Shown here: one piece after another, positions 1 through 20,000 of the stretch
How the letters are laid out: each line of letters begins with the position of its first letter
Numbering within the stretch: position 1 is the first letter of the stretch
IMG/VR virus record: IMGVR_UViG_3300020576_006994
Length of the DNA: 20,000 nt
Reading direction: 5' to 3' (one strand)
From: an uncultured virus (IMG/VR IMGVR_UViG_3300020576_006994)
Taxonomy: Duplodnaviria > Heunggongvirae > Uroviricota > Caudoviricetes
Program-made: the position numbers and the translations under genes
The notes under the pieces: generated by a model
Databases searched by the model: none
What the model saw: the letters and a program-made list of their open reading frames with translations, nothing else
What the model was told of the DNA's origin: nothing

Positions 1-968
1 GTTCTTGCCTAACGACCGTTAATGAAATACATCTTGTTCTGGGTCGTAAGATTGATGTGCGTTCCAATTGCCGACACGATGCGCTCAAGCGGGCTAATTG
101 GGTAGCCTTGGCGATTGATGTCGGTTGATGGCGACATTGACATAACAATACACTCATCATCAGTAAATACCTGGTCTGGTCGACCGTTAATTACCTGAGC
201 CCATGTATATTCATCATTTTGGAACTTAGAGATATCAATCTTGTGACCCTGAAGCTGCTCAAGAATGCGCTTAGACTGCACGCGAATATTTTCAGCTTCG
301 CGACTCTCTCCACCTTGTGGAGTTGTGCGAAATACAGTTCCGGCATCCATTGCCCTAAATGAATGGAATTGCTGATTTGAGTCACGACGAAACTCAACGG
401 CAAACTCGCCAAACGTTAGAGCGTCTTCAGCTGTTTCCATTACAAATTGAGCAAGCGTTCTTTTTTCTCGATCTCGGTAGGACTCATTGGTGCCGCAATT
501 AAGCATAAGCTCTCGAACTTGCGGAACCTCTTCCTTTTTTAATTGGTCAATTTCCTGTTCGTTAAGCTCTGCGTGCGCCTCCGGCTTAATATTGACAGAA
601 AAGCCGATGTCGAATCGGTTTGCCCGTGGACGAGCAAATAAGGACAGCTGACGAGCCCTTGTTGGCAAAATAACTCCACCAACTAATTCTTCTGTATTTC
701 TTACCTGCTTAAGGATCTCAGGAGGAATAAGGCTTGTCTTTTTTCTGTAAACAGAGGCAAACTCTTGTGACTTCTATGGATCAGAGTCGATAGAAAGCTT
801 ATTGACCATCGACCGATCTTGGGATTTCTTTAATGACTCGAGAACGCTTCCAAGCAATGATTGATCTTGATCCTGACTAGCGGAAGAGAACATTCGATTG
901 CCGGCACCGAAAGCCTCTATATTCATAATCGAGGAATCCTGTGTAGACGGAGTCTTTTTTGATGACAT
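1..968 (-). CDS. Phage portal protein, N-terminal part (runs off the left edge); 2 in-frame TAG
   Basis: ATG at 968. Track ORFs 774..968 and 9..668 share a frame and are joined across TAG 774-776; TAG 9-11 is also read through. Portal-like motifs: EDALTFGEFAVE, GYPISPLE..VSAI..HIN.T.QNKMYF.NGR*AR. Lies downstream of terminase. Confidence 0.8.
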
Positions 969-970
969 AA

Positions 971-1939
971 TTACTCCACGCTAGCCACGATAGCTTCAAT
1001 CGTTTCGATAGACAGGTTCTTGATTGACAGTGAATAGACTGTACCTTGTTGAATATACAATCCTGGTTTTTCTGGATTATTTGGCTCAAGAGGCTCAACT
1101 ACGGTAGAGTCAGACGTTGAGCCATTTATCCGAACCGATGCTTTTCCTTGAGACGCCACCATTACTAGCTTTTTTGCTGCGCTGTAAAAAATCATACCAG
1201 AAGCTGCTGGAACAATTCCTGTCTCTAGAGGAATCCCGTTCGGATAGGAAATGCGAACTTCAACCCATGACGGGGCCACTTCAGACACTTCGAACGTTCC
1301 GAAAGACGCCGACGAGAATCCTGCAGACAAAACCATCTTGTCGCCGATTTGCACTTGATTTGGAGTTCCGTTGCTAAAAATCTGAAGCTTGGTAAAATCA
1401 GCTACGGTGAATGATTGCGACGATGCATTTAAGTTTTGGAACGACACCGAAGTTGAAGTCTTAGATAGAACGATGAATCGACCTTGATTTGATGACGACG
1501 GTCCGGCTCCCGACTCAATCAAAAGAACGTCTCCGACCTGAACGTTAGTTGTGACGATTGCCGTTCCGCCAGTATTTGTAAGAGTTGCAATTGGTCCGTT
1601 AGCAGTGATTCCGAAAACTGAGGTATTGTCAATTGAGATCTATCGATCAGTCCTAAAGGCCGGTGCCGTTCCGGAATTATGGGCAAAACGATAAACATCA
1701 AGTGCCGCACTTGGCTTGGTTACGTTGAAACTAGTTGATCCACTGATCTACGTAGCTCGAACTCCACTGAACACATCGGCGGTTTCGCCAGGCAAAACCT
1801 TCACCGTTTGGGTTGAAGGATTTTCTGACTGGATACCAATTATTCTATACGACAAGTCACCAACTCGAATCGACGGATTGTTGGAGGTTTTTTTATCGTT
1901 ATAAGCAATAAGCTGTACTTGCAGGTTCACAGAACTCAT
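971..1939 (-). CDS. Probable virion structural protein (322 aa, S/T/G/V-rich, beta-type); 2 in-frame TAG
   Basis: ATG 1939 to TAA 971-973 in one frame, joining track ORFs 1748..1939 and 971..1522 through two TAGs (RAT*ISG, TDR*ISI). Lies between terminase and portal. Function inferred from composition and position only. Confidence 0.6.
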
Positions 1940-1952
1940 TTTAACCCCTACT

Positions 1953-1965
1953 TATTTATAGCAAG
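1953..1965 (-). promoter_or_regulatory. Putative extended -10 / late-type promoter CTTGCTATAAATA
   Basis: Minus-strand TG-C-TATAAA in the intergenic gap just upstream of ATG 1939. The same 10-mer CTTGCTATAA occurs upstream of ATG 9945. Confidence 0.45.
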
Positions 1966-2008
1966 TAGAATTAATTACCAGAAGGCGTCAAAGATGCGAT
2001 TTTAGACA

Positions 2009-3844
2009 TTAAATGTCCCAGTAAAAACCGCCTTTTTTCGAGGACTTAGTCACTTTATTGCCACCCAAATCGACGATGGTTTTTTGGATTTCATCTTTAA
2101 GCCAAACGCCCTGTTCATCGCTTGTGTAAGTTTTACCAACAGACGTATCCTGAATGGGCACGGCTGAGACGTGAACCTCGCCTCTAAGCTTCCATCGATT
2201 CTGTGCAACGTAAGAAAGAGCATCGTGACTATCGTCGTAAGTCTTCTAAACTTCTTCCGTTAGTTTTCCATCACTAGATTTTTTGAAATGATATTTTTCA
2301 AAGTTGTCAACAAGAGACTGCGTGTTGCCTTCAAGACCAAAGAGCTTAGTGTCGCCGTAAGGTGGGGACATCTTGTATCGGATGAATGCATGTCCGGCGC
2401 TAACGTCTTTTTTGAAAATAGCTCCGACTCTCACCTATCTGCCGATCATTCCATTGGTAGACGGATCTTCTGGATCGCAGTAAATAATGGTAAAATCATA
2501 AATGTTATGCAAACTCTTAACGAGGTCTACTTTTTGCGGTGGCTCAAGGCCACTGACCTCCACAGACCTCATTACGTAGGCATTGCCTCTGGCATCCTCG
2601 TAGACGATAACGATGGCAGTTGGGTGAGTGTAGCCGTGGTCAAGTCCTGCGTACCGCTTAACTCCTATCTTCTTCATCTGATCAATAAGGACTTGTTCTG
2701 AGATCTACGTTCCTGGATCTTCACCCATGAAGATAGTCAGCATCTCTCTTGGAGTCTTAATGAACTTTGTTCTGTCAAACCTCGGATAAACAAGGTCATC
2801 TGCAGAGGGTTGCATAGACATCGACTGAGACAAAAACCAATCATAATTCGATTGTTTAAAGTTCGATATTGTGGCTTGAATCGGCCTGAGAGCTTTACAT
2901 TTAGAGGTTTGCTTCTTGGCATCGCCTGCGCACACCGCTCTAAGTGGGCACTCAATGCATTTCTCTTTGGCGATAACTCGCTCGTACCTTATTTGCTGTT
3001 CTGGCTCCAAAGCCAAGTAATCGTCTTTAAGGAGCGCTTTATTTTCCTATACCGATACAAACATCTCCAAATCTTGAGTTCCAGATCGACTATCTGGACA
3101 CCTCTGCGTGTTCTCAAACACGGTCCAGAATTTGAATTTGGCTCCAGTTCGCTCTCTTTCATCGTATTCTTTTTCAATTACCGTATGTCGACCTTTTCTT
3201 GACGAAATACCGACTTTAACCCAAGGAAGCCCCTCCTCTGTATAAGAGGGAACTCCGGCAATGTCTGGATAGGCGGCAACCTTGTTGGGAGCAAGGCTTC
3301 CGAGCTCATCAATTGTTACAATTGGTTGGTGAGCCCCTTGAACTGACTAGGCTGTGAGCGCAAGCACTTCAATGCTTGATTCTTTTCCATTTACGCTCAA
3401 GTTCGTAATGGACATCTTAGGCTCTTCTTTAAGATGCTCTGCTATATACGGCCTAGAGACGAACTTCTTAAAGTACACGTACTATCGATTTGCCTGATCC
3501 TCGGTTCCGCCGAAGTGAACAACGCCACGGCCAAAATGAAGCGGCATTAGGATTTGAATAACAGCACAGGAAAGTGTTTTTTGCGAAGATCGGCCTGCGA
3601 TATAAAAATGAGATTCAGGCTCGTCCTGGTTTGTCTACCTTAAGCAAAAATCATAAACTTCCCACACCATATCCAGTGGATTTGACGTAGAAAATCTAGA
3701 CACAGTACAGTCCTAAAGGTCCACCTCTAGAAATGTCTTGCACCACTGTCGAAGATGCTATTTATTCTTAAGCCTCTGAAGAAGCAATCGACGCATTATC
3801 TCGTCTTTGTTGCCCTCGAGAAGCATATCTTGATTATTGCTCAT
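2009..3844 (-). CDS. terL: Terminase large subunit (611 aa); 9 in-frame TAG
   Basis: ATG 3844 to TAA 2009-2011 with no internal TAA/TGA. Walker A-like YIAGRSSQKT, Walker B-like IVTIDEL, nuclease motifs YAGLDHGYTHP, IYCDP and DDSHDALSY. Upstream of portal. Confidence 0.88.
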
Positions 3845-4439
3845 CCTCGCCTGATAGACGCTTCAGTAAAACGTCCTGGAGTTCTGGAGTAAGAACTTCA
3901 ATTGTTTGATTTGACTGAACATTAATATTTTGCTCAGTTTTGATTTTTTGAACTCTATCTTCGCCAGTTAGTTTCTGTAAAATCTCTATGGTCTCTTTGT
4001 ACGACTTACTTCCATGGATCCAAGTCTTTGGCTTATCTTCTTCTTTTCCGGTTTGAATATAACGAAGAAGCTATTCATTTTCAGACTTGTGATACGCCTG
4101 AATGATATTCGTGACGTGATCAAGGGATTCCAGTTTTTGATTCAAAAGCTTGATTTTGATCTTTTGTGTCAACGACTGAACATATTCTTCTCTCTACTCG
4201 TCCCATCTATTTCGAACTCGGCAATAAACGACGTCTTTTTCGGTAATGCCTTGATTTAAGTTCTAGATCTCAAGACACGTAGAGCCGGCAACAAATAGAT
4301 TGAGCATCTCTTTTGAGAGAGATGCAGAGATTGGCCTCGCACCGTTATTTACGGCGTCCTCATATAGTTCAAGCTCTCGACTTGAGAGGTACTTATCCTG
4401 GGCCTGCAATTCATTCTACACTTTGAATCTCTTCGTCAA
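3834..4439 (-). CDS. Probable terminase small subunit (about 201 aa, N-terminal HTH-like); 4 in-frame TAG
   Basis: Open frame (TAG read through) from TTG 4439 to TAA 3834-3836, overlapping the terL ATG. HTH-like segment LFVAGSTCLEI*NLNQGITEKDVVYCRVRNRW followed by helical region. Start codon uncertain. Confidence 0.5.
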
Positions 4440-4815
4440 AGATAACCTTGACCGACTAATCCTTCCACAGAAGGTTTCTTGACCACTGAACTAACAAATC
4501 CTTGGCTTTTTGCTTTGCATCCTACCGCTTCCACGGCGGCATATCAATTAGGGCTTGGATGTAGTTAGTCTTTACAATTCCAGTTCCTGACTTGAACCGA
4601 AACCTGTCTTTTGTCATTATCTTAAAGATGACCGTTTTTTGGTCAGGAATAACCTCAGCAACGCCGCCGAGTGAGTACTCGGAACAAGCTACGGTATAGC
4701 ACTTAAGCTGATGAGCTATAGAGTCATGCAGCATTCCATATTGGAGAAGCAATAGCTTACCTAAAAGGAGCTGATCGCTTAAGACGTCTTCATTGCCTCT
4801 TGAAGGGTTTTCCAC
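4411..4815 (-). CDS. Hypothetical protein (134 aa); 2 in-frame TAG
   Basis: Track ORF 4522..4815 extended through two TAGs (WKR*DAK, LWKD*SVKV) to TGA 4411-4413. Confidence 0.65.
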
Positions 4816-5762
4816 ACTGCCTCTTTATCTTCTAGCTGCTAGACTTCGTATACATATTCTTTTATAGCCTAATCCAGCCCACCAATGGCTTCGATATCGA
4901 TAGATTTTGAAGAAAATTCAAAATTTTCCTTAAACTGAAAAGTTACTCCAGAAATTCCTGAATAAGCCAACTCGACCTAAGCCCTCTGACTCTTTGTTCC
5001 TGTAAACTTTACAATCAATCGATCACCAGGCTTCATGCCTGGCGGTATAACTGGATCAGATTCTGGATTGGCATCCACTGACCAAAAGCACTTAACGAAG
5101 GGTGAAGTGCTAACTGAATTAATTACCATCATCTCTTTTGTATCGAAAACGAATAATCTTTTGTCGTGATTCTATTCAGACGAAATGAGCTGCCTGGGTG
5201 TACCTGGATACCAGATCTTATCCTAAATAGTCTACTGAGTGTGGATGTGCCCAGAGATTATTTTTTCGTACTTTATTCCAGAAAAATCAAACCCGTCTGG
5301 AGCATAAAACCCATTCTCAAACTTAGCGCCATCGAAGGTTTGATGGCAAAAGAGAATCTTACCTGACTTAAGCTTTGATAAAAACTGGTCTTCGTCTTTA
5401 TGAAAAGAAAGGGCATGGACTCCGTCTTCAATCTCAAAAAGCGAATTTGGGTTAATCACTGTTAGGTTTTTAATGCCATACAGGGCTTGATCTACCTAAT
5501 TAACAAACTAATTAGATGGAGAAATGCCGTCGTGGTTCCCAACCAAGACATAGACCGGAAGCTGCGCCTAAAGCTAGGACATGTTCTCCTGAACAACAGA
5601 CAAGACCTCTTGTCGAACTACCTAATGTGTATGGAACAGGTCACCAAGAAACAAAATCTAGTCGGCCCCATGCTAGATCTTAGCTGCTTCACTAAAAATG
5701 GCTTTGGTGTCTTGAATATTGTTGACCTGAGCATGCAGGTCTCCGACTATCTAGATTTTCAT
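4779..5762 (-). CDS. sbcD: SbcD/Mre11-like metallophosphoesterase nuclease (327 aa); 14 in-frame TAG
   Basis: ATG 5762 (ATGA overlap with upstream stop) to TAA 4779-4781. All five calcineurin-like motifs present: MKI*IVGDLH, D*ILFLGDLFH, LVGNHD, FCHQ, SGHIH, plus WYPGTP. Confidence 0.82.
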
Positions 5763-6052
5763 CCCTCAGATGATACCATTACTAGTGCCTGCTTTGGAAC
5801 CAGTATGAACTTTTTACCGTCATCTTCGTAAATTTTACGTGCGTGAGCTGTGCCATCAAGCTCCGCCAGAACGAAAGCTACATCACCCTATTTATAATCT
5901 TCAGAGTCAAACACAATCTTAGTTTTAACTAGATCGTTACGGAGTCGATCTGTTGTCTAGAACCGAGAAGTGGTCGCCTCGGGTTTTACCTTGTGCTCCA
6001 AAACTAGTGGCTCTAAAGCCACCAGTCCATTAAGCGTCTTTGTAGATTTCAT
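5759..6052 (-). CDS. GroES/Cpn10-like co-chaperonin candidate (97 aa); 2 in-frame TAG
   Basis: ATG 6052 with AAAGGAGA RBS to TGA 5759-5761. GroES-sized, with a matching pattern: KTLNGLVALEP (cf. RPLHDRVIVK), YK*GDVAFV (cf. VKVGDIVIF), DGKKFILVPKQALVMV (cf. DGEEYLIMRESDILAV). Confidence 0.55.
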
Positions 6053-7088
6053 ATGAAAGCTCTCCTTTTAAAAGCAAAATCTTTCTCTGCAGGAGGCTAA
6101 GCTCCCTCTATGCATTTAATATCTTATTCCTAATGTCGGATTCAATTGCCAAGTCTTCAGGCGAAGCTGCTCGATACTAAATATCAGGCTCTAAATCTTC
6201 ATCTGAAATATGCTCATGCCGCAACGAATCTGATCCAGCACCGTAAAAAGCCCGCTCGTCAAGCGACTTATACGCTCCGGGATTTCTGATCTTAGTTACA
6301 ACCTCAAAAAACGCTTCATCAGTAAGATCAAGCTATTCTTGAAGCTGTTCATCTGTCTATTCTGGATTTTCTTCGAGAAACCTTACGGCCTGAAAAGCCT
6401 TGTCTGAAACCTTAGAGCTGTACGTCAGGTGACTAGATGCTTCGTGGTAGTATTCCTGAAGGTACTTGTTCATCCACCCGTTTGCCATAGAGATGAACGC
6501 GTCTTTTTTCTATTGATCAGGAACGTACTTATCGACAGCACTGAACAGCCCAAGGTTGGCCGTCTATACAAAATCTTCCATAGAGGCTCTAGCTCCTAGC
6601 TATGGATTCTTTTTTACCATGGAGTAAAATACCTTCTATCTGTGCATAGCCAAATATAGAGATGCCGAAACGATTTCCTGCCTCTTGCTGGAGATATCAG
6701 CAAGAATCTGAGCAAGCTCTGACTTGTTTGATGAATCTACAACTCTTGACATCTAGAACTTACAGAAGTTAAAGTTTACTGGAGCCTTATATAGCTCTTT
6801 TGAGTTCATTCTTTGAATGTTTTTTGAAACAGGTCCAAACTTTTCGTCTCGTATCCTGAAAAAGATGCTTGATTTACCCTGATAGTCTTTGTCTTGATTT
6901 ACTGTTCTGCAAAAAGTATCATAGATCTACTTCCCAGCCAAACTCTTCCGAAGAGTTTTCTAGAAGAGATCTTCTAGTTTCATCAAGTCCTTAAACATCT
7001 TGAGCATCTTAGTTGAATCAATTGGCGCAGACCCAATCTCGCTCTTAAGCTCATTTGCGTATGAATGCAAAAGGTCTTTCTCGCTCAC
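6030..7088 (-). CDS. Sigma-70-family RNA polymerase sigma factor-like protein (352 aa); 11 in-frame TAG
   Basis: GTG 7088 (GTGA overlap with helicase stop) to TAA 6030-6032. Region 2-like LYLAMHR*KVFY...MEDFV*TANLGLFSAVDKY...FISMANGWM; region 3-like PE*TDEQLQE*LDL and YKSLD; SPEDLAIESD...LSLLQRKILLLKG. Absent from the standard-code ORF track. Confidence 0.72.
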
Positions 7089-8539
7089 TGAACCCCCATC
7101 TTAGACGAATGCACGTGCTGCACCGGCCCTACCTACTGGTAGTATTTAGCTCGCTCATCTGCATGTCTCTTTAAGAGCGGTACATTTGTGACCCTAAAAT
7201 CAACTATCTTACAAGAAGTCTTGCCGGTCTCTTTGTGAACCCTAGTACTTCTTCCAATTGCACCCTGCTTAACCTTTGTTCCGGCCTTATTTGCCTGCCA
7301 GTTTATCGTAAGACGAACTGGTAGGAAATTCGTTCCAGTGCTTACAGCACTCGTGCCCACAACGCATAGAATTTTGCCTTGATTGAAATCATCGCATATA
7401 GAAGTAACATCAGAGTCGCCACAGGCATAAGCATACTCAACCTGAAGGCGTTTTTTAAGGAGCTCTTCTTGACCATGTTCATCTACCAGCACCAAGACTG
7501 GCATTCCTTTTTTTACCTATTGATTAACCATCTGCGAAATAATCTTCGCAATTCCATCATTTTTGTAAAAATGCTCTTGGTTCATCTTTACAACGTTATC
7601 TTTATTCTAGTACTTTGACTTAGATTCAATGTCAATAACCATCGTATCAATCTTTGCCAGATACCCCTCAGCTTGCGCTTGCTGTATAGAATATTCAAAA
7701 ACCTGTTTTCCAATGATCGCCTCAAGCATCAAGTCCCGTCCGTCGTTTCGCTCTTGAGTTGCCGAAACAAACCATCGATACGGACAATGAGCTAAAAGAC
7801 CATGGCAAACCTTCTCAAGCATCTACTAGGGAAGAGAATGACTCTCGTCGGCAATAAATACATCGTATTGCTTAAATTCCTCTGTAGCCTCTCCCTCAAC
7901 TAAAGACAGGCTCTTTCCAACTGAAATCAAAAACTGCTTGCCAACTTGCTTCTTGCCGGCCCCGAACATGCCAACGCGCTCTTTTCCAAGAAGATGACAT
8001 GCATCATTATAGATCTGCTCGGCAATGGACTTTGAAGGTGTACAAACCACACAACGAAGTCCGGTCTTTTTAAGTAGACTAATAATTACATTAGTTTTTC
8101 CAGCTCCGGTTGCAATCTCGACGTGGGAATGTCGATTCTAGAGAAGTGCATCAAGTGCCTACTGCTGGTAGGGCCTTAAAGAAAACTCCGGAATATTCTT
8201 CCATGGAATCAACTTGAACTCAGGGGCAGCAACTTCATCGATAACGCTAGAAATAAGATTGTGGCGCCTAAGAAGATCAGCCATGCCCTAATAAGTCCAG
8301 AATCCATTTTCATCCTCCATCAAAAGAGTCTTCTTGGATTCAGCGGTCAACCTATCAATCTCTTTCTAAACCCACTCTTCGCCGAACCTCATAGTGTAAT
8401 ACGGATTCTTCTTCAAGCCTTTTAGTTGGTGAAGAACCGATTTGTCCTGATAGGTCAGGAGGCGTCTGAGGCTTGCCAGCTCTGCTTCCGATACTTCCTC
8501 GAGCTTGATCTTTGTTGGTTCTACCAGTCGCTATTCCAA
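7085..8539 (-). CDS. SF2 (UvsW/XPB-like) DNA helicase (484 aa); 10 in-frame TAG including a tandem TAGTAG
   Basis: TTG 8539 (GGGAAG RBS) to TGA 7085-7087. Q-motif LRPYQQ, Walker A IATGAGKT, Ia VCTPS, II IADESH, III VSAT, V VSTGTN, VI QGAIGRSTR. Confidence 0.88.
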
Positions 8540-10066: not shown

Positions 10067-11866
10067 ATGTACATTAAGGAACATCAAAAGTCAAAAACAG
10101 CAGCAAAAACAATCACTTCAGATCCACGAGCTTTAAAAAGAGCAGTACTCAGTACGCTTAAAGAAGCGTCAAATCTAGTTGGTTCAACACTTGGACCCAA
10201 TGGAAAGATTGTATTAATCGAAAGACAAGAGAATTTGCCGCCATTCCTTACAAAGGATGGCATCACTGTATTCAATTCAATGACCTTTGCTGATCCTACA
10301 AAGCAATAGATCCTTGAATAGGCTCGGGATGCAAGCTCAAAAACCAATGTAGACGCAGGGGATAATACGACCTCGTAGACAATCCTTGCAGAGGCTCTGG
10401 TTCGACTTGGTTTTGATTATCTTGAAAAGAACCCACGGGAATCAACTCAGGTTGTAATGCGGTCTCTGGAATAGGCATATCGGGACGTAGTTATTCCGTT
10501 CATCAAAGAAAATGCAAAGAAGATCACCCTTCAAAACTCTGATGACTTTCTTAAAAAAGTTGCAATGGTTGCAACAAATCACGATGAAGCCATGTCGGAC
10601 GCAGTCATCGAGGGGTTTAATATCGTAGGCCATGGTGGAAACTTTACAATCCTTGAACAACCAGGAGTTGATGGATTTGAGGTTGAGCAGATCGAGGGGT
10701 TTCCCATTGCTCGAGGTTTTGAGGATACCTGCGGTCGATTTATTGAGCAGTTCATTAATGATCGAGCCAATTACCGCACGGTACTCGAGAAGCCTAAGTT
10801 TTTGATCTACAACGGCAAGCTTAACGACATGAATCCACTCATGCCTATCCTTGAGAAGGTGGCTAACGCCTCGGCTCCAAAAGAGCAGGGTGGTATTGGT
10901 TTTAGTGAAAACTTGATTATTGTTGCTCACCACTTCTCAGAGAATGTCCTGGCAACCCTGGCCAATAACTTTGTTCAGCCAGGAACGATCAAGGCGATCC
11001 CCCTAAAAGCGCCCATTACGTCACAGGCGAACAGCCACTATCATTTCCTTGTGGACCTGTCGCATTTCGTTGGCGCAAAGGTTTTTGATCCGCTTTCGGC
11101 TCCACTTGAGAGTGCCACACTTGGCCATCTTGGCCTTGATTCAATGCAATCCTTCGAATACATGCGATATCGCTCTACAATCATCGGAAAACCTGATGAA
11201 ATGCTTGTATTGGCTCGAGCTGAAGAGCTTTATAAGCAAAAAGCGGTTGCCGAGTCTATTTTGGACGCAGAATTGACCGCAGAGCGATGCGCAGTGTTAA
11301 CTGGTGGAATCGCTAAACTCAAGATCTTTGGCTCAAGCGAGGCTGAGCTTAAGGAGAAGAAACATCGGGTAGAAGACGCCGTAATGGCCATTAAAGGGGC
11401 CATCAAGGACGGGGTGCTCCCTGGCGGATAGAAGACGCTGCTGATGCTGTCAAAGCTGATCCTGAGCGATTCTAGCTTGCACCCATAGGTTCGTTCCATT
11501 ATGGGACGGGCGTTCCTGACCCCGTTCTGGCGGCTATTTGAGAACGCACGTATTCCAGAAGAGGAAATCCTTGACATTAAGCGAAATGTAATGGACGGAG
11601 ATTTCTATAAGACCTATAACGCCCTCACTCATGTCTATGGCGATGCCGTTGAACTTGGAGTTCTTGATTCGGCCCAGGCCGTAAATATGTCGATCAAGAA
11701 TAGCCTCTAGGTTTCAAAAATGCTAATTCAGCTTTCTGGCATCGTTGTGTTTAAGCGTGATGGCGATCTTGATAGAAATGAAGCCAATTCGATCTATGCC
11801 GAAAACCAGGCAATGAGTGATGCGATTGAGCAGTCTAATCGTGAACAATGGGAGCCGCCGTCATGA
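10067..11866 (+). CDS. groEL: Phage GroEL/Cpn60-like chaperonin (599 aa); 7 in-frame TAG
   Basis: Track ORFs 10067..10309, 10565..11431 and 11501..11710 share one frame and end at TGA 11864-11866. Motifs STLGPNG, TKDGITV, AGDNTTS*TIL, ELKEKKHRVEDA, GVLPGG, GVLDS. Confidence 0.93.
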
Positions 11867-12153
11867 TCGTACTTTTTAAATGCGTACTGTGTAAAAATGA
11901 CATCAAGAAGCTTTACCAGAAAAACCAGGAGCGCCCGCCGTTCTTAAACTGTGCTTGTGGTGGAATCATGGAGGCACAGCTTCCGGACTTCGAAACCTCT
12001 TCTTATGAGGTTGTTGATAACGGAAATCAGGCAAAAAAAGTCCTTTTGCGGAAGGATTAGGTTGCCAAGGGTAAGCAAAAGGGAGATCTTTACAAAGATC
12101 TTGTGGAAACCCGTGATGGTGTGGTAAAACGAACTGATGATGGTAAAGCTTAA
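11863..12153 (+). CDS. Small zinc-ribbon protein (96 aa); 1 in-frame TAG
   Basis: ATG 11863 (ATGA overlap with groEL stop) to TAA 12151-12153; CVLC...CACGG. Confidence 0.7.
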
Positions 12154-14257
12154 TTACGCCAAAATTTCAGGATTTATGGACATCGGGACCGATAGTGGTC
12201 CCGTTTTTTTTAAGCCGTGTGCGTATGGGGTGTTCGGTCAGAATCTTGACTAGGGCGGCTCAAACGCATCCGGCAAAACATCGTTCGTTACGGCCATAAC
12301 GTAGGGCCTAGCAGGCCTTGAGCCGCTAGGACTGTCAATAAAAGACGTAAAAAATAGAAATTTAGACGTTCCGTGCGTAGTCGAGCTTGGACTTGATGTG
12401 TCCGGAAAAGAAGTCATCATAGCTAGAAGTTTTGGCAAGGGTGTATCGCTTGTGGTTGACGGCGTAGCCATTGACGGGAAGCAGGATGTAATTAAACAGC
12501 GCATCCTTGAGACCTTGGGGGTAACGGCTGAGCAGGCCGTGATGCTCACACACAAACGTCAAGGGCACCTAGACAATTTTTTGACAATGAAAGATTCCGA
12601 CAAGAAGGAGTTTCTGTCGAAAATCCTTGATCTTGATCGAGTAGACTTATAGAAAGAGCAGGTTCAGGCCAAGTCAAAGCAGATTGAGCTAGCCTTAAAA
12701 CAGGCTAGCGACGCAGAGATTAAGACCTGTTAGGCGCTAGAAGCGATCAGCGACAGCCTGTCCTCGGCAGAGCAGCAGCTTGAAAGCTTAAGTCGAATTC
12801 ATGATGAGGCTAAGAGCCTGGGCACTGAGCAAGTAAGGAGCTTAGAGGCAGCCCTTGCGCTTTTGCCCCAAATTGCGGAAGTTGATGTAGGAGTGATCCG
12901 GGCGATTATCGAAAAAATTGAAAATGAGAGAACGAGACTGTAGGCCGCTAATGAGCTAGCATAGGCAGAAAAAGAAGAGATTGAGCGTCTGTCTTAGCAG
13001 CTATCAAGTAAGCCATAGGAGCCTGAAGAAATTGAACGGTAGATCTCTGAGGCAGAATCTTCATTAAAAAAAGCCCAGCTTGGAGTAAGGGCGAAAGCTG
13101 AGATTCAAAGGCTTATTTCGATCAAAAAGCACGAGATCTAGTCATTTACGGTGCCACCTGAGCACTCAGACGAAAACTGCACGTCCTGTGGACAGACTAT
13201 GCCAGAAGATGTGCTCTCTAAGTCTAGAGAGCGTCATCGATTAGCAATTGAAAAGGCAAATGAAGGCTTGGCAAAAAAAGAGTCCGAGCTGCAGAAGCTT
13301 ACTGCTGACTTTGACAAGATAACAGCAATTGACGTAGACGGAGCACTGGCTTAGTCGCAAGAACAGCTGGTTTTGGCAAAGCAGTAGAGAGTGAAGTGGC
13401 AAGAAAGCGTATCTACCTAGACAGTTGAAGCGAGTCTTGCGGAAGCAAAAAAGAAGGCGGCTAAAACTAAGGCAGAGATAGAGACCATATATTCACTGAT
13501 TTCGTCACTAGACAGAGAAATAAAGTCCATACAGGATTCAGCAAGTAGGGCACTGGCCGATCAAAGAAAGTCAATATCGGATCAGATCAAGACTAATCTT
13601 CAGGCAATTGATAGGGCGGCTGCAGAATTAAAGCGGCACTCTGATCTTTACGAAAAAGACAAAGAAAGGGTTCTTGCAAAGCAGCTAGAATTAGATCTTT
13701 AGAGAAAAGAAAGAGAAAACAAAGAAAAAGAATTTAGTGTTATTGAGCAGACCCTAAAGGTTCTGTCTAACTCTGGTTTTGTTGGATACGTTTTTGAGCA
13801 GGTACTGAACGACTTCAATAACTTTTCGAACGAATTCCTTTCAAAGACAGATTTAATGCGTGACGTATATCTAGAATTCAGCTCAGATAAGGTCGTAAAA
13901 TCTACAGGGTAGAACGTTAAATCAATTCAGTCAAAGATAATGCAAAAAGGGCAAGAAACTTCATTTGATACGCTTTCTGGAGCAGAAAAATTAACCGTTC
14001 TTAGCTAGGTGGACTACGCCATTGAGCGAATCATTAAGCAACGTCAAGGGGTTAGCTTCTCGTGGAAAATCCTAGACGAGTCGTTTATGTGGGTAGACTC
14101 AACAAACAAAGAGCAGGTCCTGCAAGAGGTTCTGTGTGATTCAGAGAAGACCTACCTACTTGTAGACCATGCATCCGAATTTAATTCTGCGCTACAAAAT
14201 AAGATAGTTATTGAAAAATCTAATGGCATTGCAAAGGTGTAGTTGATTGAGCACTAA
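12137..14257 (+). CDS. sbcC: SbcC/Rad50 (gp46-like) SMC-type ATPase (706 aa); 17 in-frame TAG
   Basis: ATG 12137 to TAA 14255-14257 without internal TAA/TGA. Walker A GSNASGKT, Q-loop RQG, long coiled coils with central Zn-hook CTSCGQ, signature LSGAEK, Walker B KILDES, H-loop VDH. Confidence 0.88.
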
Positions 14258-14911: not shown

Positions 14912-14913
14912 TC

Positions 14914-15513
14914 TTGTCTAAAAAGAAGGCGCCTAAAACTCCTCAAGAGCTCATTGACCGAAATGGTCGATGGATTGAGGAGCGTGGAAGGATTAAGGGG
15001 TAGATTAGGCGGGCATTCCGTCTTAGTCCGCAGCTTAGGATTACGCTTTCTTAGGCAAGGGTCGAGCTCCCTCCAAAAACAAAGAAGGATGGAGACCCTG
15101 GTAAAAAGAATCAAGTTCGGTATCGGTGTTAGTCATGTGGAGGCCTGTTTCCTCAGGCACAGGTCCAGGTAGATCACTTGGATCCTGTCGTTCCGTTAGA
15201 CAAGCAAGAAGCCGATATGACGTATGATGAGATCGTTCGAGGGGTCTTTTGTAATTTAGAAAACTTACAGGTTCTTTGCTCTACAAAAGCCTCGATGTTA
15301 CCTAAAGGACAGAAGAGCTGTCACTAGCTAAAGAGCTAGGAAGAGAACTTTATAAGAGATAGGTTTTAGGAGAAGAAGTTTTCTTTGTCGTATCAGGAGC
15401 AGCTGGAAATATATCGACAGCAGTACAAGGACTACTTGATTAAGCAAAAGTAGGAGCTTGAGGCAAAAGAAGAAAGAAAGCGAATTCGTGAAGAAAAGAA
15501 AAGACAGAAGTGA
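14914..15513 (+). CDS. HNH endonuclease-like protein (199 aa); 7 in-frame TAG
   Basis: TTG 14914 (GAGGAG RBS) to TGA 15511-15513. IKG*IRRAF, YRC*SCG, VQVDHLDPV, NLQVLC...SCH*LKS. Invisible in the standard-code track. Confidence 0.8.
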
Positions 15514-15547
15514 AGATGTTTGTGCTACAAAGTCAATGAGGTGAATT

Positions 15548-15916
15548 ATGGACAATAAAACATACCAGGCGTGGGCAATTACAAAGGAGCGCCAGGAGTA
15601 CGAAAAAGTCGCCGAACGAATCGGAGCCGGAACCACTGGTAGCCTTTTGCATGGCGCCATTGGTATTTCTGGTGAAGCAGGTGAGCTGCTTGATGCCGTG
15701 AAGAAGCATGTGTTTTACGGAAAGCCGCTTGACGTTAATAACGTAAAAGAAGAAATTTCTGACGTACTTTGGTATTAGGCTATTGCGCTGGAGGCTGTTG
15801 GCAGCTCATTTGACGAAGTTATGCAAATCAATCATGACAAGCTTGAAAAGAGATATCCCTCTGGCTTTACAGAGCAGCATGCAGTCGCCAGACTCGATAA
15901 GCAAGGAGAAGCGTAA
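15548..15916 (+). CDS. mazG: MazG-like nucleotide pyrophosphohydrolase (122 aa); 1 in-frame TAG
   Basis: GAGGTG RBS; GISGEAGELLDAVKK...KEEISDVLWY*AIA...NHDKLEKRYP; TAA 15914-15916 overlaps the next ATG. Confidence 0.85.
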
Positions 15917-16662: not shown

Positions 16663-17168
16663 TGGAACAACAGAAAAGTTTTCTTGAGCAGTTTGAAGAT
16701 GTAAAAACGGCCCTACCAGCCCTTGAGCAATCAATGGTAAAAATGCTTGGGTTCATGCAAGTCAACATGGACCGCCTGGACCAAGTAACTAACGAGCTAA
16801 ATGCCGTTCGTAACGCATCACAGTAGACCATTGATAACCTATCTCTTGTCCTTGACGAGGCAATATCTGAGCTCGGTGAAGATGCTAGGAAGCGTGTCTT
16901 TGAGCGAGTTGCAGATAAAAAATAGGCCGAGATCAAGAAAAATATCGAAGAGCAGGTTGCCGATGGCAAACTCTTTTCAAAAGAAGCGGTCGATTCAGCT
17001 GATGATATCGTTCTCTTCTCTAGCGAGAAGACCCAAGTTGCATTGGCAGTTGCTCGAGTGAGTGAGCTTTCTGAGGAATACTCTCAATAGCTCATGGGTA
17101 AAGGTCCTGGATCTGAAGCAAAAGACATTAAGTTAGAAGCGGTGTATACAGATAAAAAGCAGGGGTGA
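16662..17168 (+). CDS. Hypothetical protein (168 aa); 3 in-frame TAG
   Basis: ATG 16662 to TGA 17166-17168. Helical N-terminus; C-terminal SQ*LMGKGPGSE loosely resembles the ALLGKKVGD turn of GreA/FKBP-like folds. Confidence 0.68.
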
Positions 17169-17170
17169 TT

Positions 17171-18415
17171 GTGGCTTCGAATAAGTTTAAGTCAAAGGTC
17201 TCAGTTGACGACCTAGCCAAAGACATTGTAAAATAGGCCCGAGCTCTTGACGTTGAGCCATGGGCAATCAAAAAAGCTCAGTACTTTGCTTCTGGAAAGC
17301 ACTCTGAGTGGGAGTTTCGCAAAGTAGGTGGATTTAATTAGGTACTAAAGACCTTCTTTCCGGAAGAGCTCGATCAGTCTGCAAGAGTAAGCATTGCAGA
17401 GCTGCGACGCGAAAATAACGCCCTTCAAAAGCTTTTAGGAAATCAAGACTTATTCTTGGAGCGTATTGAGCAGGCAGTTTCTAAGATTTAGCCAGCCAAA
17501 GCTACGCCATATAAGCCTAAGAAGAACAAAAGTACAGAAAGAGCCCTTAACCTAATTCTTAGTGATCTGCACATTGGATCAGATATTGCCAAGGACGAGG
17601 TTGGGCATCAATTCGGCCCAGTAGAAGAGGCTCGCGCCCTGGCTTACATTGCAAAAAATGTAATTGACTACAAAATGCAATACCGTGACGAAACAGAGCT
17701 TAATCTGTTTGTTTTAGGGGATGTAACAGAGGGTGAGCTGCACGCACGAACCAGCGCCGACCTCCTGCATCTTCAAAATTGTCGAGCCATGTACCTACTC
17801 ACTCAGTTCGTTTAGCAAATGTCTGCTAACTTTAAGAAAGTAACGGTATATTTTGCTGTCGGAAACCACGGACGAGACATGGCGATTCATAAAGATCGGG
17901 CGACGGCGCTTAAGTACAATGCTCACGAAACTACCATTTATTACGGCGTAAAGCTGGCTACTAAGCACCTGACTAACGTATCCTTTGTTCATCCAAAAAC
18001 TCCATGGGTTGAGGCGTCTGTACTTGGTCATAAAATGTACGCCACTCATGGCGATACGCACTTCAATCCAGGAAATGTAGGGAACAAGATCGACATTCGC
18101 GGTTTAGAGGCACAGGCAAACACAATTAACGCATCTCTAAAAGACTAGGAAGAGTTTAAGGTATTTATGTGCGGTCACGTACATACGCCACTTGCGATGC
18201 AGATTAAGAATGGGTAGTTCATTGTGATCAATGGCGCTCTGACGCCACCAAACAGCTACGCTACCAGTCTCAATATCCATGAATCGCCACAGGTTCAGGT
18301 TATGTGGGAAACTACAAAGAAGCATGCTGTCGGTGACACTCGAATGATCAATGCAGCTGGATCCAGTAAAGACGAGAATCTAGACAAGATCATCAAGCCG
18401 TTTACCGGACTGTAA
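17171..18415 (+). CDS. Calcineurin-like metallophosphoesterase (414 aa); 6 in-frame TAG
   Basis: GTG 17171 to TAA 18413-18415; motifs LSDLHIG, LGDVTEG, VGNHGR, THGD, CGHVH, NGAL. Confidence 0.82.
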
Positions 18416-18443
18416 AAAGTTGCGGACAGAAGTAATAAAAACT

Positions 18444-18469
18444 AAGGCTGCCACCTGGCAGCCTTTTTT
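18444..18469 (+). terminator. Rho-independent terminator
   Basis: AAGGCTGCC-ACCT-GGCAGCCTT perfect hairpin followed by a T run, about 30 nt after the TAA at 18415. Confidence 0.85.
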
Positions 18470-18490
18470 CATTTACAATCTAGTGAGTTT

Positions 18491-18859
18491 ATGGGCTATA
18501 AACATAATATGCGACGAGATAGATCCGGAAAAGCGCCGAAGGCCCGCCGTAGAGGTAACGACAATGATAGTGATGAAAATCTCAGGGGTCAACTCAGAGA
18601 TCTAAAGAAGCAGAACAAGACGCTTATGGCTAGAGTTAAGCAGCTCGAGCGACGATTGAGAATGCACGACGACCTCACACTGGACAAGCAGGCCGATGAA
18701 ATGGTCTAGGCTGAGGCAGTAACTGAGGATCTCAATCCAGAAAAGAAATGTAAAACCAAAGGCTGCCATGGGATCATGGATCTTAGCGTTATTTGGTCAC
18801 CAAAGGGAGAAATTAGCTGGTGGACGTGTCAGAAATGCTAGCACAAAGAGAGGGGATAA
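18491..18859 (+). CDS. Basic coiled-coil plus C-terminal Zn-ribbon protein (122 aa); 2 in-frame TAG
   Basis: Track ORF 18491..18709 extended to TAA 18857-18859; CKTKGC...CQKC. Confidence 0.68.
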
Positions 18860-19239
18860 CCGACGCCTCTGCTCAGTATGTGTTCGACACGATCCTGGCT
18901 AGCTACGAGTCATAGATTAAGTCGAGATATAAAGTTCAGCAGGCCATCGTTTAGGCAACCGAAGATATCGAGCTGGTTCAGGCCATTCGAGACGACTTGC
19001 TCCATGCGATAGGATTCGCACAAGGTGGCGCACAAATCGTTTCCATGAACGAATACAAAAAGATGAAGTTTCAGCTGCAGCGTGTGTATGTTGACCTAAA
19101 AGAGAAAGAGATCGGGATCAGAAGAATGCTGCATCTGGAGCGATCCATCGGGATTGAATGCGATCAGCTAAAAGCTGGAATGGAAAAAGTTATCAGACAG
19201 AGCAAAACCGGGCTAGTCCTGGCTTTCAAGAGGGGATAA
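18835..19239 (+). CDS. Hypothetical protein (about 134 aa); 2 in-frame TAG
   Basis: ATG 18835 in frame with track ORF 18997..19239; TAA overlaps the next ATG. Start uncertain. Confidence 0.6.
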
Positions 19240-19451
19240 TGAACAAGGCCTAGGTGGAAAAGTTTTTCGTTAATTCAAAAAAGCATCGAGACAGCATAAG
19301 TCTTGCTTCAGACGAATAGCCAGTCAATGAAAAAACAATTTAGACGATGCTTGGGATAACTCCAGAAGAAGTCGGGAAACTTTACAATCAGGCTTTGAAA
19401 GTCATGAAAAATGCACTATCATCGGAGACAGATGAAGAAGATTACCGATAA
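19239..19451 (+). CDS. Small sigma-70 region 4-like HTH protein (70 aa); 3 in-frame TAG
   Basis: ATG 19239 to TAA 19449-19451; NEKTI*TMLGITPEEVGKLYNQALKVMK parallels the region 4.2 pattern TLEEIAxxLGISRERVRQIxxxALxKLR. Confidence 0.6.
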
Positions 19452-20000
19452 GACTATTTTTGGAGTCCATAACCATCCACTGTCGCTTGATAGTGGAAAC
19501 ACCGTAAAACACTTCTTGACGTCCGCAGCTAAAGATTTTGGCCGGACGTCAATTGCTATTACAGACCATGGACAGCTTGGCGCCATTATCGAAGCAGATT
19601 AGGTCGCAAAAGACTTAAAGAAGAAGGGCATTGATCTAACTATCGTCCCAGGCATCGAGCTATACCTGATTCCTGACGACAAAGAGGATGTCTGGGAGCT
19701 AGATAAAAAGGGAAACAAGAAGTTCCAATACTATCACGTCACTGTTCATTTCGAGGATTTCGAGGCTTACCTAGATGGGTGTAAGCTTTCTCGAGCTGCG
19801 TTTGATCGAGCAAAGTGGAAGGGCGGTGAACTTAAGCCGATGACCACATGGAGCGAGCTTGAGTCACTCAGCGGAAAGGTCACATTAACTAGCTCCTGCT
19901 TGGTCGGATAGGTCTTAAAGCCGTTCTTAATTGGAAAAAAAGAGCAAAGCGAGTACAACTTTCTTCGCCTAAAAGCTATTTAGGGTCCAGGCCGTTTCTT
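19432..20000 (+). CDS. dnaE: DNA polymerase III alpha-like PHP domain, N-terminal part (runs off the right edge); 3 in-frame TAG
   Basis: ATG 19432 with GGAG RBS; HNH..SLD, SIAITDHG, IVPGIELY, YYHVTV, LTSSCLVG; frame open to the window end when TAG is read through. Confidence 0.78.

What the first reader, a model, noticed from the sequence alone, without database searches (positions are those of the whole stretch)
1..20000. Phage genome with TAG reassigned to alanine (candidate undescribed amber-to-Ala genetic code)
Seen in sequence: about 140 in-frame TAGs (manual count) interrupt essential genes on both strands, and no in-frame TAA/TGA does. Read-through restores full-length terminase, portal, GroEL, helicase, SbcC/D and others that abut by ATGA/TAATG overlaps. 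From family knowledge, TAG sits where Ala is the usual residue: GroEL GDNTTS*TILA (10376; cf. GDGTTTATVLA) and ILE*AR; helicase DESHSLP* (7826; cf. DEAHHxPA); metallophosphoesterase MKI*IVGDLH (5751), D*ILFLGD, HTH*VVR and SE*N; SbcC LS*VDYA (14006; cf. LAxDLA); HNH IKG*IRR (15001) and YRC*SCG (15130); sigma HR*KVF (6636; cf. SIAKKY); HTH TI*TMLG (19341; cf. EIAxxLG); TerL QANR*Y (3482); portal NGR*AR (9). Established: phage amber recoding described so far is TAG=Gln (table 15), and I know TAG=Ala only from some green-algal (Sphaeropleales) mitochondria. Inference: this is a new prokaryotic/viral code variant.
Basis: partly seen in the sequence, partly recalled or inferred. Interest (0 to 1): 0.98.

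Follow-up and report, generated by a model that had tools for sequence, protein, structure and literature searches.

The report
Phage that reads TAG as alanine
This stretch of a wastewater bacteriophage genome uses the stop codon TAG as an ordinary codon that almost certainly means alanine, a genetic-code variant not described for phage genomes in the papers I could search, and one I also found in three unrelated phage groups including cultured Aeromonas phages.

Summary
Observation confirmed. 139 in-frame TAGs lie in 23 ORFs; all 21 complete ORFs end in TAA or TGA. Cover by long ORFs rises from 0.20 to 0.88 when TAG is read as sense.

Interpretation supported. Over 49 TAG columns in alignments with standard-code relatives, Ala scores +14.0, Ser -12.4 and Gln -50.0. 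All 61 sense codons decode correctly as controls. In strongly conserved columns TAG is Ala in 9/15, against 87/141 for true GCN codons. The same method calls Gln for an unrelated TAG-recoded contig.

Not shown: the suppressor tRNA. Only about 28 kb of this genome was visible, and it holds no tRNA.

Outside the window I found TAG=Ala by the same test, each time with a tRNA(CUA) carrying the alanine identity pair G3:U70, in three unrelated phages. One is cultured Aeromonas phage AhSzw-1.

The searched literature reports only TAG=Gln for phage genomes. One 2025 preprint saw a single phage tRNA(CUA) insert Ala, "biological relevance unclear". Public protein sets read these TAGs as Gln.

Verdict: a real new variant of phage stop-codon recoding, of high interest.

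The parts
3..968 (-). Portal protein, N-terminal part (runs off the window; the full 661 aa are in L001); 2 in-frame TAG
   Evidence: Portal site 320 (the NGR-TAG-AR site at the window's left end) is Ala in 17 of 21 relatives. Site 472 is Ala in 21 of 21 but lies outside the window, in L001.
971..1939 (-). Conserved ORF of unknown function between portal and TerL; 2 TAG
   Evidence: Relatives at the TAG sites: A8/S7/T4 and T7/A6/G3.
2009..3844 (-). Large terminase subunit, 611 aa, 9 TAG
   Evidence: Weak Pfam TerL_ATPase match. Annotated TerL of Myxococcus phage Mx1 at 26% identity. 67 homologs aligned; Ala is commonest at sites 44 and 121 and ties with Met at site 166.
3834..4547 (-). ORF in the small-terminase position (function inferred from position only), 5 TAG
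4779..5762 (-). Calcineurin-like metallophosphoesterase (SbcD-like), 327 aa, 14 TAG
   Evidence: Pfam Metallophos E 4.4e-14. 144 homologs aligned: sites 47, 89 and 197 are Ala 0.44-0.76, but site 4 is Leu 0.86, site 177 is Gln 0.66 and site 180 is Gly 0.62.
6030..7088 (-). Sigma-factor-like protein, 352 aa, 11 TAG
   Evidence: Weak Sigma70_r2 match. L003 residues opposite the TAGs: A K A A K Q E S D Y L.
7085..8551 (-). Superfamily-2 helicase, 488 aa, 10 TAG
   Evidence: Pfam ResIII/DEAD/Helicase_C. 115 homologs aligned; site 242 (after the DESH motif) is Ala 0.91 and site 345 is Ala 0.65.
8455..9945 (-). ORF of unknown function with the densest recoding, 27 TAG in 496 codons; overlaps the helicase ORF by 97 bases, so its true start is uncertain
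   Evidence: Partial homolog in L003.
10067..11866 (+). Phage GroEL-type chaperonin, 599 aa, 7 TAG
   Evidence: Pfam Cpn60_TCP1 E 1.4e-33. 113 orthologs aligned; Ala 0.48, 0.81, 0.96, 0.39 and 0.28 at five of the seven TAG sites.
12137..14257 (+). SbcC/Rad50-like ATPase (named from its P-loop and signature motif read by eye, and its position), 706 aa, 17 TAG
   Evidence: L003 has Ala opposite 5 of the 16 aligned TAG sites.
14914..15513 (+).
   Evidence: L003 residues opposite six TAGs: A E A T A A.
15548..15916 (+). MazG-type pyrophosphohydrolase, 1 TAG
   Evidence: Pfam MazG E 3.5e-9.
17165..18415 (+). Second metallophosphoesterase-like protein, 416 aa, 6 TAG
   Evidence: Weak Metallophos_2 match.
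19411..19998 (+). PHP domain, probably the start of a DNA polymerase III alpha-like protein (runs off the window), 3 TAG
   Evidence: Pfam PHP E 3e-12.

Best explanation
The window is part of the genome of a large tailed phage. It is distantly related to Myxococcus phage Mx1, its size is estimated at about 160 kb, and it is found in wastewater, activated sludge and river metagenomes. In it TAG is a sense codon for alanine, and only TAA and TGA end genes. TAG supplies about a quarter of all presumptive alanine codons in these genes.

Shown: TAG is read through in essential, conserved genes, and the residue that fits best is alanine.

Inferred: decoding is done by an amber-suppressor tRNA with anticodon CUA that carries the alanine identity pair G3:U70. 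The host alanyl-tRNA synthetase can therefore charge it, because that enzyme does not inspect the anticodon (established knowledge of AlaRS). The tRNA would lie in the unseen part of the genome. The inference rests on three other TAG=Ala phages in which exactly such a tRNA is encoded.

Also inferred: the highly expressed head genes avoid TAG because suppression competes with release factor 1.
For: 1. TAG is sense. 139 in-frame TAGs, no gene ends in TAG, and ORF cover rises from 0.20 to 0.88. 34 of 40 listed strain variants are synonymous in the read-through frames.

2. TAG is alanine, from one relative. In the syntenic standard-code relative L003 the residues opposite 89 TAG sites are A 25, E 10, S 8, D 7, K 6, T 6, I 5, Q 4. 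The likelihood, calibrated on the window's own sense codons, is A -229.5, S -251.2, Q -260.4. The 28% Ala matches the 32% self-conservation of true Ala codons.

3. TAG is alanine, from family alignments. With weighted alignments of four families (113, 144, 115 and 67 homologs), 39 TAG columns give summed log-odds of A +11.7, S -9.0 and E -27.9, and 61 of 61 sense codons decode correctly. With further genes, 49 columns give A +14.0, S -12.4 and Q -50.0, again 61 of 61.

4. Conserved columns behave like true Ala codons. Among columns with one residue at 0.6 or more, TAG is Ala in 9 of 15, against 87 of 141 for GCN codons. Sets of 39 columns drawn from S, Q, G, T, E, K or L codons never gave Ala as the best call, 0 of 1000 draws each.

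5. Method control. The unrelated TAG-recoded contig L009 decodes as Gln: Q -102.2, N -112.6, A -118.6 over 35 sites.

6. Mechanism by analogy. Three unrelated phages decode as TAG=Ala and each encodes one tRNA(CUA) with G1:C72, G2:C71, G3:U70 and A73.
- G013 (HK97-type): A in 98 of 268 cells, Q in 3.
- Aeromonas phage AhSzw-1: A at 63 of 237 sites, Q at 13; A -634.1, S -705.3, Q -717.3.
- G012 (T4-like TerL): A in 20 of 60 cells, Q in 1.

7. A phage tRNA(CUA) with G3:U70 inserted Ala in E. coli extract by intact-mass MS (preprint 10.1101/2025.10.30.685624; passages and Table S1 row read).
Against: 1. No suppressor tRNA was found for this phage. ARAGORN, Rfam at E up to 1, and a structure-only scan of my own found none in the window or in L001/L011. 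The five closest large relatives carry either no tRNA or a single tRNA-Met.

2. TAG columns are less Ala-rich than true Ala columns. The mean weighted Ala share is 0.243 against 0.395 (background 0.071). The summed score of +11.7 lies below the 31-59 range of 39 random GCN columns.

3. Some TAG sites sit in columns conserved for another residue: Leu 0.86, Gln 0.66 and Gly 0.62 in the phosphoesterase, and Ser 0.77 in GroEL.

4. The composition check does not help. GCN-encoded Ala alone is already near the ortholog mean, and adding TAG pushes Ala above it (z 1.3, 1.9, 2.1, 0.1).

5. All of this is inference from alignment. No peptide evidence exists for this phage.

6. In the multi-homolog likelihoods the cells of one site are not independent, so the margins there are overstated. 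In one search some spurious-frame alignments were not removed.
Confidence: 0.85

Rival explanations
1. Ordinary phage code 15: TAG is read as glutamine through a tRNA-Gln-like amber suppressor, as in crAss-like and Lak phages.
For: This is the only TAG reassignment reported for phage genomes in the papers I read (Borges preprint, passages; Peters 2022, abstract and passages). Public protein sets translate these very genes with Q at every TAG (P0001, P0271, P0391). One phosphoesterase TAG column is Gln 0.66. Three TAGs lie in a Q-rich tract at the portal C-terminus.
Against: Gln is far behind Ala in every test: 31 log units against L003 and 64 over 49 columns. Gln stands opposite only 4 of 89 TAG sites in L003. 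Columns such as GroEL 104 (Ala 0.96), helicase 242 (Ala 0.91) and portal 472 (Ala 21 of 21) hold almost no Gln. The method does return Gln for L009.
Confidence: 0.02
2. TAG is read as serine, or ambiguously as several small residues (Ala, Ser, Gly), for instance by a suppressor charged by more than one synthetase.
For: Ser is second in every test. TAG columns are weaker for Ala than true Ala codons are. Several TAG columns are Ser- or Gly-dominated: GroEL 548 is S 0.77, GroEL 455 is G 0.47 and phosphoesterase 180 is G 0.62. Engineered G3:U70 allo-tRNAs with a CUA anticodon gave mainly Ala and Ser in E. coli (Mukai 2017, PMC5389517, passages).
Against: Ala leads Ser by 21-26 log units. In conserved columns the Ala share of TAG equals that of GCN codons (9/15 against 87/141). 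Sets of 39 Ser-codon columns never score best as Ala.
Confidence: 0.08
3. The TAGs are not translated at all: a degraded, non-functional genome, or an artefact of assembly or base modification.
For: No experiment shows the proteins.
Against: Only TAG interrupts the frames, never TAA or TGA, and no gene ends in TAG. The same TAGs stand in an independent assembly and in contigs of runs from several studies, including RNA libraries. Strain variation is mostly synonymous in the read-through frames (34 of 40). Cultured, plaque-forming Aeromonas phages show the same pattern.
Confidence: 0.01

Closest known systems
Genetic code 15 in phages (TAG = Gln; crAss-like, Lak and other gut phages)
   Same: A phage reads the amber stop as an amino acid throughout its genes while TAA and TGA still terminate. 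A phage-encoded suppressor tRNA(CUA) charged by a host synthetase is the usual mechanism (Borges preprint, passages).
   Different: The residue is alanine, not glutamine. The synthetase exploited would be AlaRS, through G3:U70, rather than GlnRS, through the anticodon. Here the head genes are free of TAG (0 TAG against 94 GCN; Fisher p 8e-11), whereas that preprint describes recoding concentrated in late genes.
UAG = Ala in mitochondria of some chlorophycean green algae
   Same: The same codon takes the same new meaning, read by a tRNA-Ala with anticodon CUA. My metagenome pattern scan returned just such a tRNA (G3:U70, A73) beside an ND1-like gene (my reading of the translation) with 13 in-frame TAGs in 28-30% GC DNA.
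   Different: That case is organellar and eukaryotic. This is a virus of bacteria, with terminase, portal and capsid genes. I saw the algal literature only as search listings and a reference entry.
tRNA(CUA)-151 of Seki et al. 2025 (bioRxiv 10.1101/2025.10.30.685624)
   Same: It is a suppressor tRNA taken from a metagenomic phage genome. It has G3:U70 by my reading of the Table S1 sequence, and it inserted alanine at UAG in E. coli extract.
   Different: That work tested one tRNA out of its genome's context and states that its biological relevance is unclear. Here the genome-level use of TAG as Ala is shown by conserved columns. Its tRNA has a degenerate D-arm, unlike the canonical ones found here.
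Laboratory and allo-tRNA alanine amber suppressors
   Same: Any tRNA with G3:U70 and a CUA anticodon is charged by AlaRS and reads UAG as Ala (Mukai 2017, passages; the AlaRS identity rule is established knowledge).
   Different: Those are engineered anticodon swaps used at single reporter codons, not a natural genome-wide code.

Membership tests
Alternatively coded (stop-codon recoded) phages | One stop codon occurs in frame many times in conserved genes, and reading it through restores full-length proteins | tested here: met
   139 TAGs in 23 ORFs; ORF cover 0.20 -> 0.88; Pfam domains span the TAGs.
Alternatively coded (stop-codon recoded) phages | The other stop codons still terminate genes | tested here: met
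   15 TAA and 6 TGA ends, 0 TAG ends.
Alternatively coded (stop-codon recoded) phages | The phage encodes a suppressor tRNA for the recoded stop | not testable with these tools
   None in the roughly 28 kb visible. The rest of the genome is not held. The Borges preprint itself finds suppressors in only 35-40% of such phages.
Alternatively coded (stop-codon recoded) phages | The recoded codon is enriched in late (structural and lysis) genes | tested here: not met
   Major capsid, scaffold-like and a neighbouring head gene have 0 TAG against 94 GCN; the window's genes have 137 against 436.
Genetic code 15 (TAG = Gln) | TAG positions align with glutamine in standard-code homologs | tested here: not met
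   Gln scores -50.0 against Ala +14.0 over 49 columns; Q stands at 4 of 89 sites in L003.
TAG = Ala code (known from chlorophycean mitochondria) | TAG positions align with alanine in standard-code homologs | tested here: met
   with 61 of 61 control codons correct and a Gln-calling control.
TAG = Ala code (known from chlorophycean mitochondria) | A tRNA with anticodon CUA and the AlaRS identity pair G3:U70 | not testable with these tools
   Not seen for this phage. Present in the three other TAG=Ala phages and in the algal-type control.
TAG = Ala code (known from chlorophycean mitochondria) | Organellar genome | tested here: not met
   The genes are those of a tailed phage: terminase, portal, capsid in L001, phage GroEL.

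The most novel reading that the evidence does not exclude
TAG = Ala is a recurrent and so far unrecognised genetic code of tailed phages. It occurs in at least four unrelated lineages: this Mx1-like phage, an HK97-type phage, a phage with a T4-like terminase, and the cultured T5-like Aeromonas phages of the AhSzw-1 group. In at least the three lineages where the tRNA could be seen, it is carried by an Ala-type amber suppressor tRNA that may itself move between phages. The suppressors of three lineages are 71-86% identical to one another but only 68-70% identical to the tRNA-Ala(UGC) next to them. Gene callers and databases currently misread these genomes as code 15 or break their genes into fragments.
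Probability: 0.55. Interest if true: 0.92.

Novelty: new variant of a known kind. Interest (0 to 1): 0.88.

Why it matters
Stop-codon recoding in phages is known, but in the papers I read only as TAG=Gln and TGA=Trp (plus TGA=Gly where the host uses it too). Those are the cases where the host synthetase tolerates the suppressor anticodon. Alanine would be a third route, and a mechanistically simple one, because AlaRS ignores the anticodon altogether.

If this is right:
1. Current pipelines that apply code 15 put a wrong residue at about 2% of positions in these proteomes, as already seen in public protein sets. Code 11 instead shatters the genes; the TerL region of one Aeromonas phage record is annotated as five hypothetical proteins.
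2. Cultured Aeromonas phages offer an immediate experimental system for a natural UAG=Ala code.
3. The TAG-free head genes and TAG-rich replication genes in this phage do not fit the 'late-gene switch' model proposed for code 15 phages.
4. Natural Ala-type amber suppressors are of interest for genetic-code engineering.

Tried and rejected
1. One-step-mutation idea. I asked whether the non-Ala TAG columns are enriched for residues whose codons lie one mutation from TAG (Q, K, E, S, L, W, Y). They are not, significantly: 20/33 against 93/178 for GCN columns, p 0.45. Dropped.

2. Composition test. I asked whether TAG fills an Ala deficit. The result is uninformative.

3. Searches for this phage's suppressor tRNA:
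- ARAGORN on the window and on 80 related loci, Rfam at E up to 1, and my own stem-loop scan. The scan gave only weak hits inside genes and one terminator hairpin.
- A D-arm-anchored CUA pattern in IMG/VR. A stricter pattern gave 8 loci, again none with G3:U70.
- The strict pattern in JGI metagenomes gave only what looks like an algal mitochondrial fragment. In 185,579 prokaryote species genomes it gave nothing.
- The relaxed pattern in those genomes gave 50 loci. ARAGORN called a tRNA(CUA) in 8 of them, 5 with G3:U70, none beside relatives of this phage.

4. Walking along the genome. The PHP-domain protein found nothing in IMG/VR. The capsid protein found 70 relatives but none recoded, apart from the same 16 kb contig.

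5. Close relatives as a readout of TAG-to-sense exchanges. L001 has no difference at a TAG. The 96% GroEL relative P0001 has Ser where the window has TAG at site 474, but its DNA could not be fetched.

6. RNR alpha of AhSzw-1 against two solved structures alone gave 0 Ala at 8 sites. The genome-wide comparison showed this was sampling noise.

I used smaller requests instead.

8. Whole genome of the window: none is held. Earlier notes of this scan: none.


Full report
WHAT IS THERE

Under the bacterial code the window is almost uncoded: 32 ORFs of 80 aa or more, the longest 288 aa. Reading TAG through gives a compact, phage-like gene map on two diverging strands.

Leftwards it runs helicase, sigma-like protein, a small ORF, an SbcD-like metallophosphoesterase, an ORF in the small-terminase position, large terminase, a conserved unknown, and portal. 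Rightwards it runs GroEL, a small ORF, an SbcC-like ATPase, small ORFs, an HNH-like protein, MazG, further ORFs, a second phosphoesterase-like protein, and the start of a PHP-domain polymerase.

Pfam supports Cpn60, Metallophos, ResIII/DEAD, MazG and PHP strongly, and TerL and sigma region 2 weakly.

The 23 ORFs hold 139 in-frame TAGs in 6592 codons (2.1%). All 21 complete ORFs end in TAA (15) or TGA (6) and none ends in TAG. Cover by stop-to-stop ORFs of 150 aa or more is 0.20 under the standard code and 0.88 with TAG as sense. Freeing TGA or TAA instead gives only 0.44 and 0.33.

THE TAGS ARE REAL

An IMG/VR contig from another assembly (L001) overlaps window 1-7635 at 99.76% identity. Its 18 differences all lie in sense codons, and the 48 TAG codons in that range are unchanged.

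The stretch occurs in wastewater, activated-sludge and river metagenomes: 20 listed runs hold it or part of it, and the listed runs come from 8 studies. Two of the runs are metatranscriptomes.

I laid contigs from three DNA studies and one RNA library on the window. Of 410 variant places, 40 were listed. None of those 40 touches a TAG codon, and 34 are synonymous in the read-through frames. That is the mark of purifying selection on those frames. Thirty-five TAG codons lie inside RNA-library contigs that match without any difference. This argues against RNA editing, with the caveat that such libraries can contain DNA.

WHICH AMINO ACID

A first look at GroEL against solved bacterial GroELs was ambiguous. 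By eye the seven TAG sites faced M, M, A, K, G, T/A and S. Closer relatives settled it.

This phage belongs to a large clade of 100-175 kb phages related to Myxococcus phage Mx1. Nearly all of them use the standard code.

Three lines of evidence agree:

1. The syntenic relative L003 (GroEL 60% identical). It has A at 25 of the 89 aligned TAG sites, then E 10, S 8, D 7, K 6, T 6, I 5 and Q 4. I took the substitution pattern of each of the window's own amino acids against L003 as the model. The likelihood of these 89 residues is then best for Ala (-229.5), followed by Ser (-251.2) and Gln (-260.4). True Ala codons are conserved at 32%, and TAG faces Ala at 28%.

2. A Codetta-style test on Henikoff-weighted alignments of four families: GroEL 113 homologs, phosphoesterase 144, helicase 115, TerL 67.
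   - I dropped four near-identical recoded relatives, homologs outside 0.7-1.3 times the query length, and one TAG column of 40 with occupancy under 0.7.
   - Summed log-odds over 39 TAG columns are A +11.7, S -9.0 and E -27.9.
   - The result holds when only informative columns are kept: 23 columns give A +17.4 and S -8.7; 19 columns give A +16.1 and S -5.7.
   - Every sense codon with 5 or more columns decodes to its true residue: 61/61, 60/60 and 59/59.

3. Adding genes of the window and of L001's extension, aligned to the capsid-module loci of up to 69 relatives, gives 49 columns: A +14.0, S -12.4, E -44.6, Q -50.0, with 61/61 controls. Striking single sites are GroEL 104 (Ala 0.96), helicase 242 after the DESH motif (Ala 0.91) and portal 472 (Ala in 21 of 21).

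As a control on the method, the same likelihood procedure applied to an unrelated TAG-recoded contig met by chance (L009, against its relative L010) calls Gln: Q -102.2, N -112.6, A -118.6 over 35 sites.

WHAT DOES NOT FIT NEATLY

TAG columns are less Ala-rich than GCN columns. The mean weighted Ala share is 0.243 against 0.395, with a background of 0.071. The summed score lies below the range of random sets of 39 GCN columns, which is 31-59. A few TAGs sit where relatives conserve Leu, Gln, Gly or Ser.

In strongly conserved columns the two codon classes behave alike: Ala in 9 of 15 against 87 of 141. So I read the difference as TAG being placed more often at variable sites, not as a different meaning.

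My idea that TAG sites derive from one-step neighbours was not significant (p 0.45). The composition check is neutral to slightly adverse.

MECHANISM

No tRNA is encoded in the window, in L001 or in L011. CheckV rates the 16 kb contig as 10% of a genome, so about five sixths of the genome is unseen. The closest large relatives have no tRNA or a single tRNA-Met. More distant clade members carry tRNA-Ala(UGC) or tRNA-Ala(CGC) with G3:U70 near the capsid module.

Pattern scans for an alanine-type amber suppressor gave these results:
- Ordinary phage CUA tRNAs lack G3:U70: 0 of 85.
- The strict pattern picks up what looks like the algal mitochondrial case, which serves as a positive control.
- A relaxed pattern finds five IMG/VR loci with a tRNA(CUA) bearing G1:C72, G2:C71, G3:U70 and A73.

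Three of those records are recoded genome-wide. ORF cover rises 0.37 -> 0.80, 0.51 -> 0.88 and 0.31 -> 0.70. Each has exactly one CUA tRNA, and in two of them it lies beside tRNA-Ala(UGC). None is related to this window. All three decode as alanine:
- G013 is an HK97-type phage with 25 TAGs in TerL. Against eight standard-code phages it gives A in 98 of 268 cells and Q in 3.
- G011 proved to be the cultured T5-like Aeromonas phage AhSzw-1. Against Pectobacterium phage My1 it gives A 63, S 25, E 18 and Q 13 over 237 sites, with likelihoods A -634.1, S -705.3 and Q -717.3.
- G012, with a T4-like terminase, gives A in 20 of 60 cells and Q in 1.

So in three phage lineages the column test and the tRNA identity agree. 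I infer the same mechanism here: a suppressor charged by the host AlaRS, which does not read the anticodon.

GENE-CLASS PATTERN

TAG makes up 137 of 573 presumptive Ala codons in the window's genes, and up to 57% in one gene. It is absent from the major capsid, the scaffold-like gene and a neighbouring head gene in L001 (0 TAG against 94 GCN; Fisher p 8e-11). It is also nearly absent from a block of small leftward ORFs there.

This is the opposite of the late-gene enrichment described for code 15 phages. It suggests avoidance in the most highly expressed genes. That is inference.

WHAT IS KNOWN

The Borges et al. preprint states that only TAG->Gln and TGA->Trp are observed in phages that differ in code from their host (passages). 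Peters et al. 2022 validated code 15 by proteomics (abstract and passages).

Seki et al. 2025 tested 29 phage tRNA(CUA) by mass spectrometry. 28 gave Gln and one gave Ala, described as an unusual reassignment of unclear biological relevance. Their references for Ala are chlorophycean mitochondria and allo-tRNAs (sections 5 and 7, passages, one row of Table S1).

Two open papers on the Aeromonas phages do not contain the words stop codon, amber or genetic code. The original 2018 description is not held.

Nine full-text searches found no paper describing a phage genome with TAG=Ala. Subscription journals are largely outside that library.

Public protein sets hold this phage's GroEL, helicase and TerL relatives with Q at each TAG.

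VERDICT

This is a new variant of a known kind of system, phage stop-codon recoding with a new amino-acid assignment. It is not confined to this phage. The undemonstrated steps are the tRNA of this genome and direct peptide evidence.

Noticed in passing
G011 = Aeromonas phage AhSzw-1, MG676225.1 (loci L236-L241; suppressor tRNA at record 60691-60765): This cultured T5-like phage is TAG-recoded genome-wide and decodes as TAG=Ala. Its G3:U70 tRNA(CUA) lies next to tRNA-Ala(UGC) in a 34-tRNA array. Relatives AhSzq-1, AhP_Mru1, TS3 and Akh-2 share the TerL at 85-93%. In some of those records the TerL region is annotated as several hypothetical proteins.
   Followed up: yes
G013 (L224/L225, IMGVR_UViG_3300006226_000469) and G012 (L242-L248, IMGVR_UViG_3300002494_000025): Two further unrelated phages decode as TAG=Ala and carry an Ala-type tRNA(CUA). 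One is HK97-type; the other is 135 kb with a T4-like terminase. G013's tape-measure gene has 38 TAGs.
   Followed up: yes
Suppressor tRNAs of G011, G012 and G013: They are 71-86% identical to one another but only 68-70% identical to the tRNA-Ala(UGC) beside them. This hints at a shared or transferred suppressor rather than local duplication.
   Followed up: partly
L215/L217 (IMG/VR, GC 0.35) and L261, L273, L286, L296, L298 (contigs in GTDB genomes): More tRNA(CUA) genes with G3:U70 and A73. L261 and L286 are identical to the AhSzw-1 suppressor but sit in a MAG labelled Phocaeicola. Whether their genomes read TAG as Ala was not tested; the flanks of L217 and L298 do not look strongly recoded.
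   Followed up: no
L009 (IMGVR_UViG_3300028833_003317): A separate GroEL-encoding phage contig that is TAG-recoded and decodes as Gln. I used it as the method control.
   Followed up: partly
L209-L211 (JGI metagenome contigs, GC 0.28-0.30): Three identical contig fragments carry an ND1-like gene with 13 in-frame TAGs, tRNA-Lys(UUU) and a tRNA(CUA) with G3:U70. Most likely this is a green-algal mitochondrial genome of the known UAG=Ala type.
   Followed up: partly
L079:2913-2986 (-): A standard-code relative of this clade encodes a tRNA with anticodon UUA (ochre-suppressor-like), although its flanks do not look TAA-recoded.
   Followed up: no
L204:8001-8079, L208:8001-8074 and L202:4091-4178 (huge phages of 360-610 kb): These CUA tRNAs have a G:U pair shifted to position 2:71 or 4:69 of the acceptor stem rather than 3:70. 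Their amino-acid identity is unknown.
   Followed up: no
Homologs P0004-P0008, P0062 (GroEL), P0305, P0342 (helicase), P0443, P0450 (TerL): Some relatives' GroEL, helicase and terminase proteins are 300-350 aa longer and carry homing-endonuclease or intein Pfam domains (PF05204, PF14528). This suggests inteins in essential genes of this phage clade.
   Followed up: no
L001:13347-15622 and L001:9912-12172: Head genes (capsid, scaffold-like, one more) have no TAG at all, and a block of six small leftward ORFs has 0-1 TAG each. This contrasts with 2-5% TAG in replication genes.
   Followed up: partly
window 18417-18441: A small length polymorphism between strains (2 bases left out, AA put in) in the gap between two genes, seen in two runs.
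   Followed up: no
L040:11607-11954: A distant clade member encodes a tmRNA next to a tRNA-Arg(CCU).
   Followed up: no
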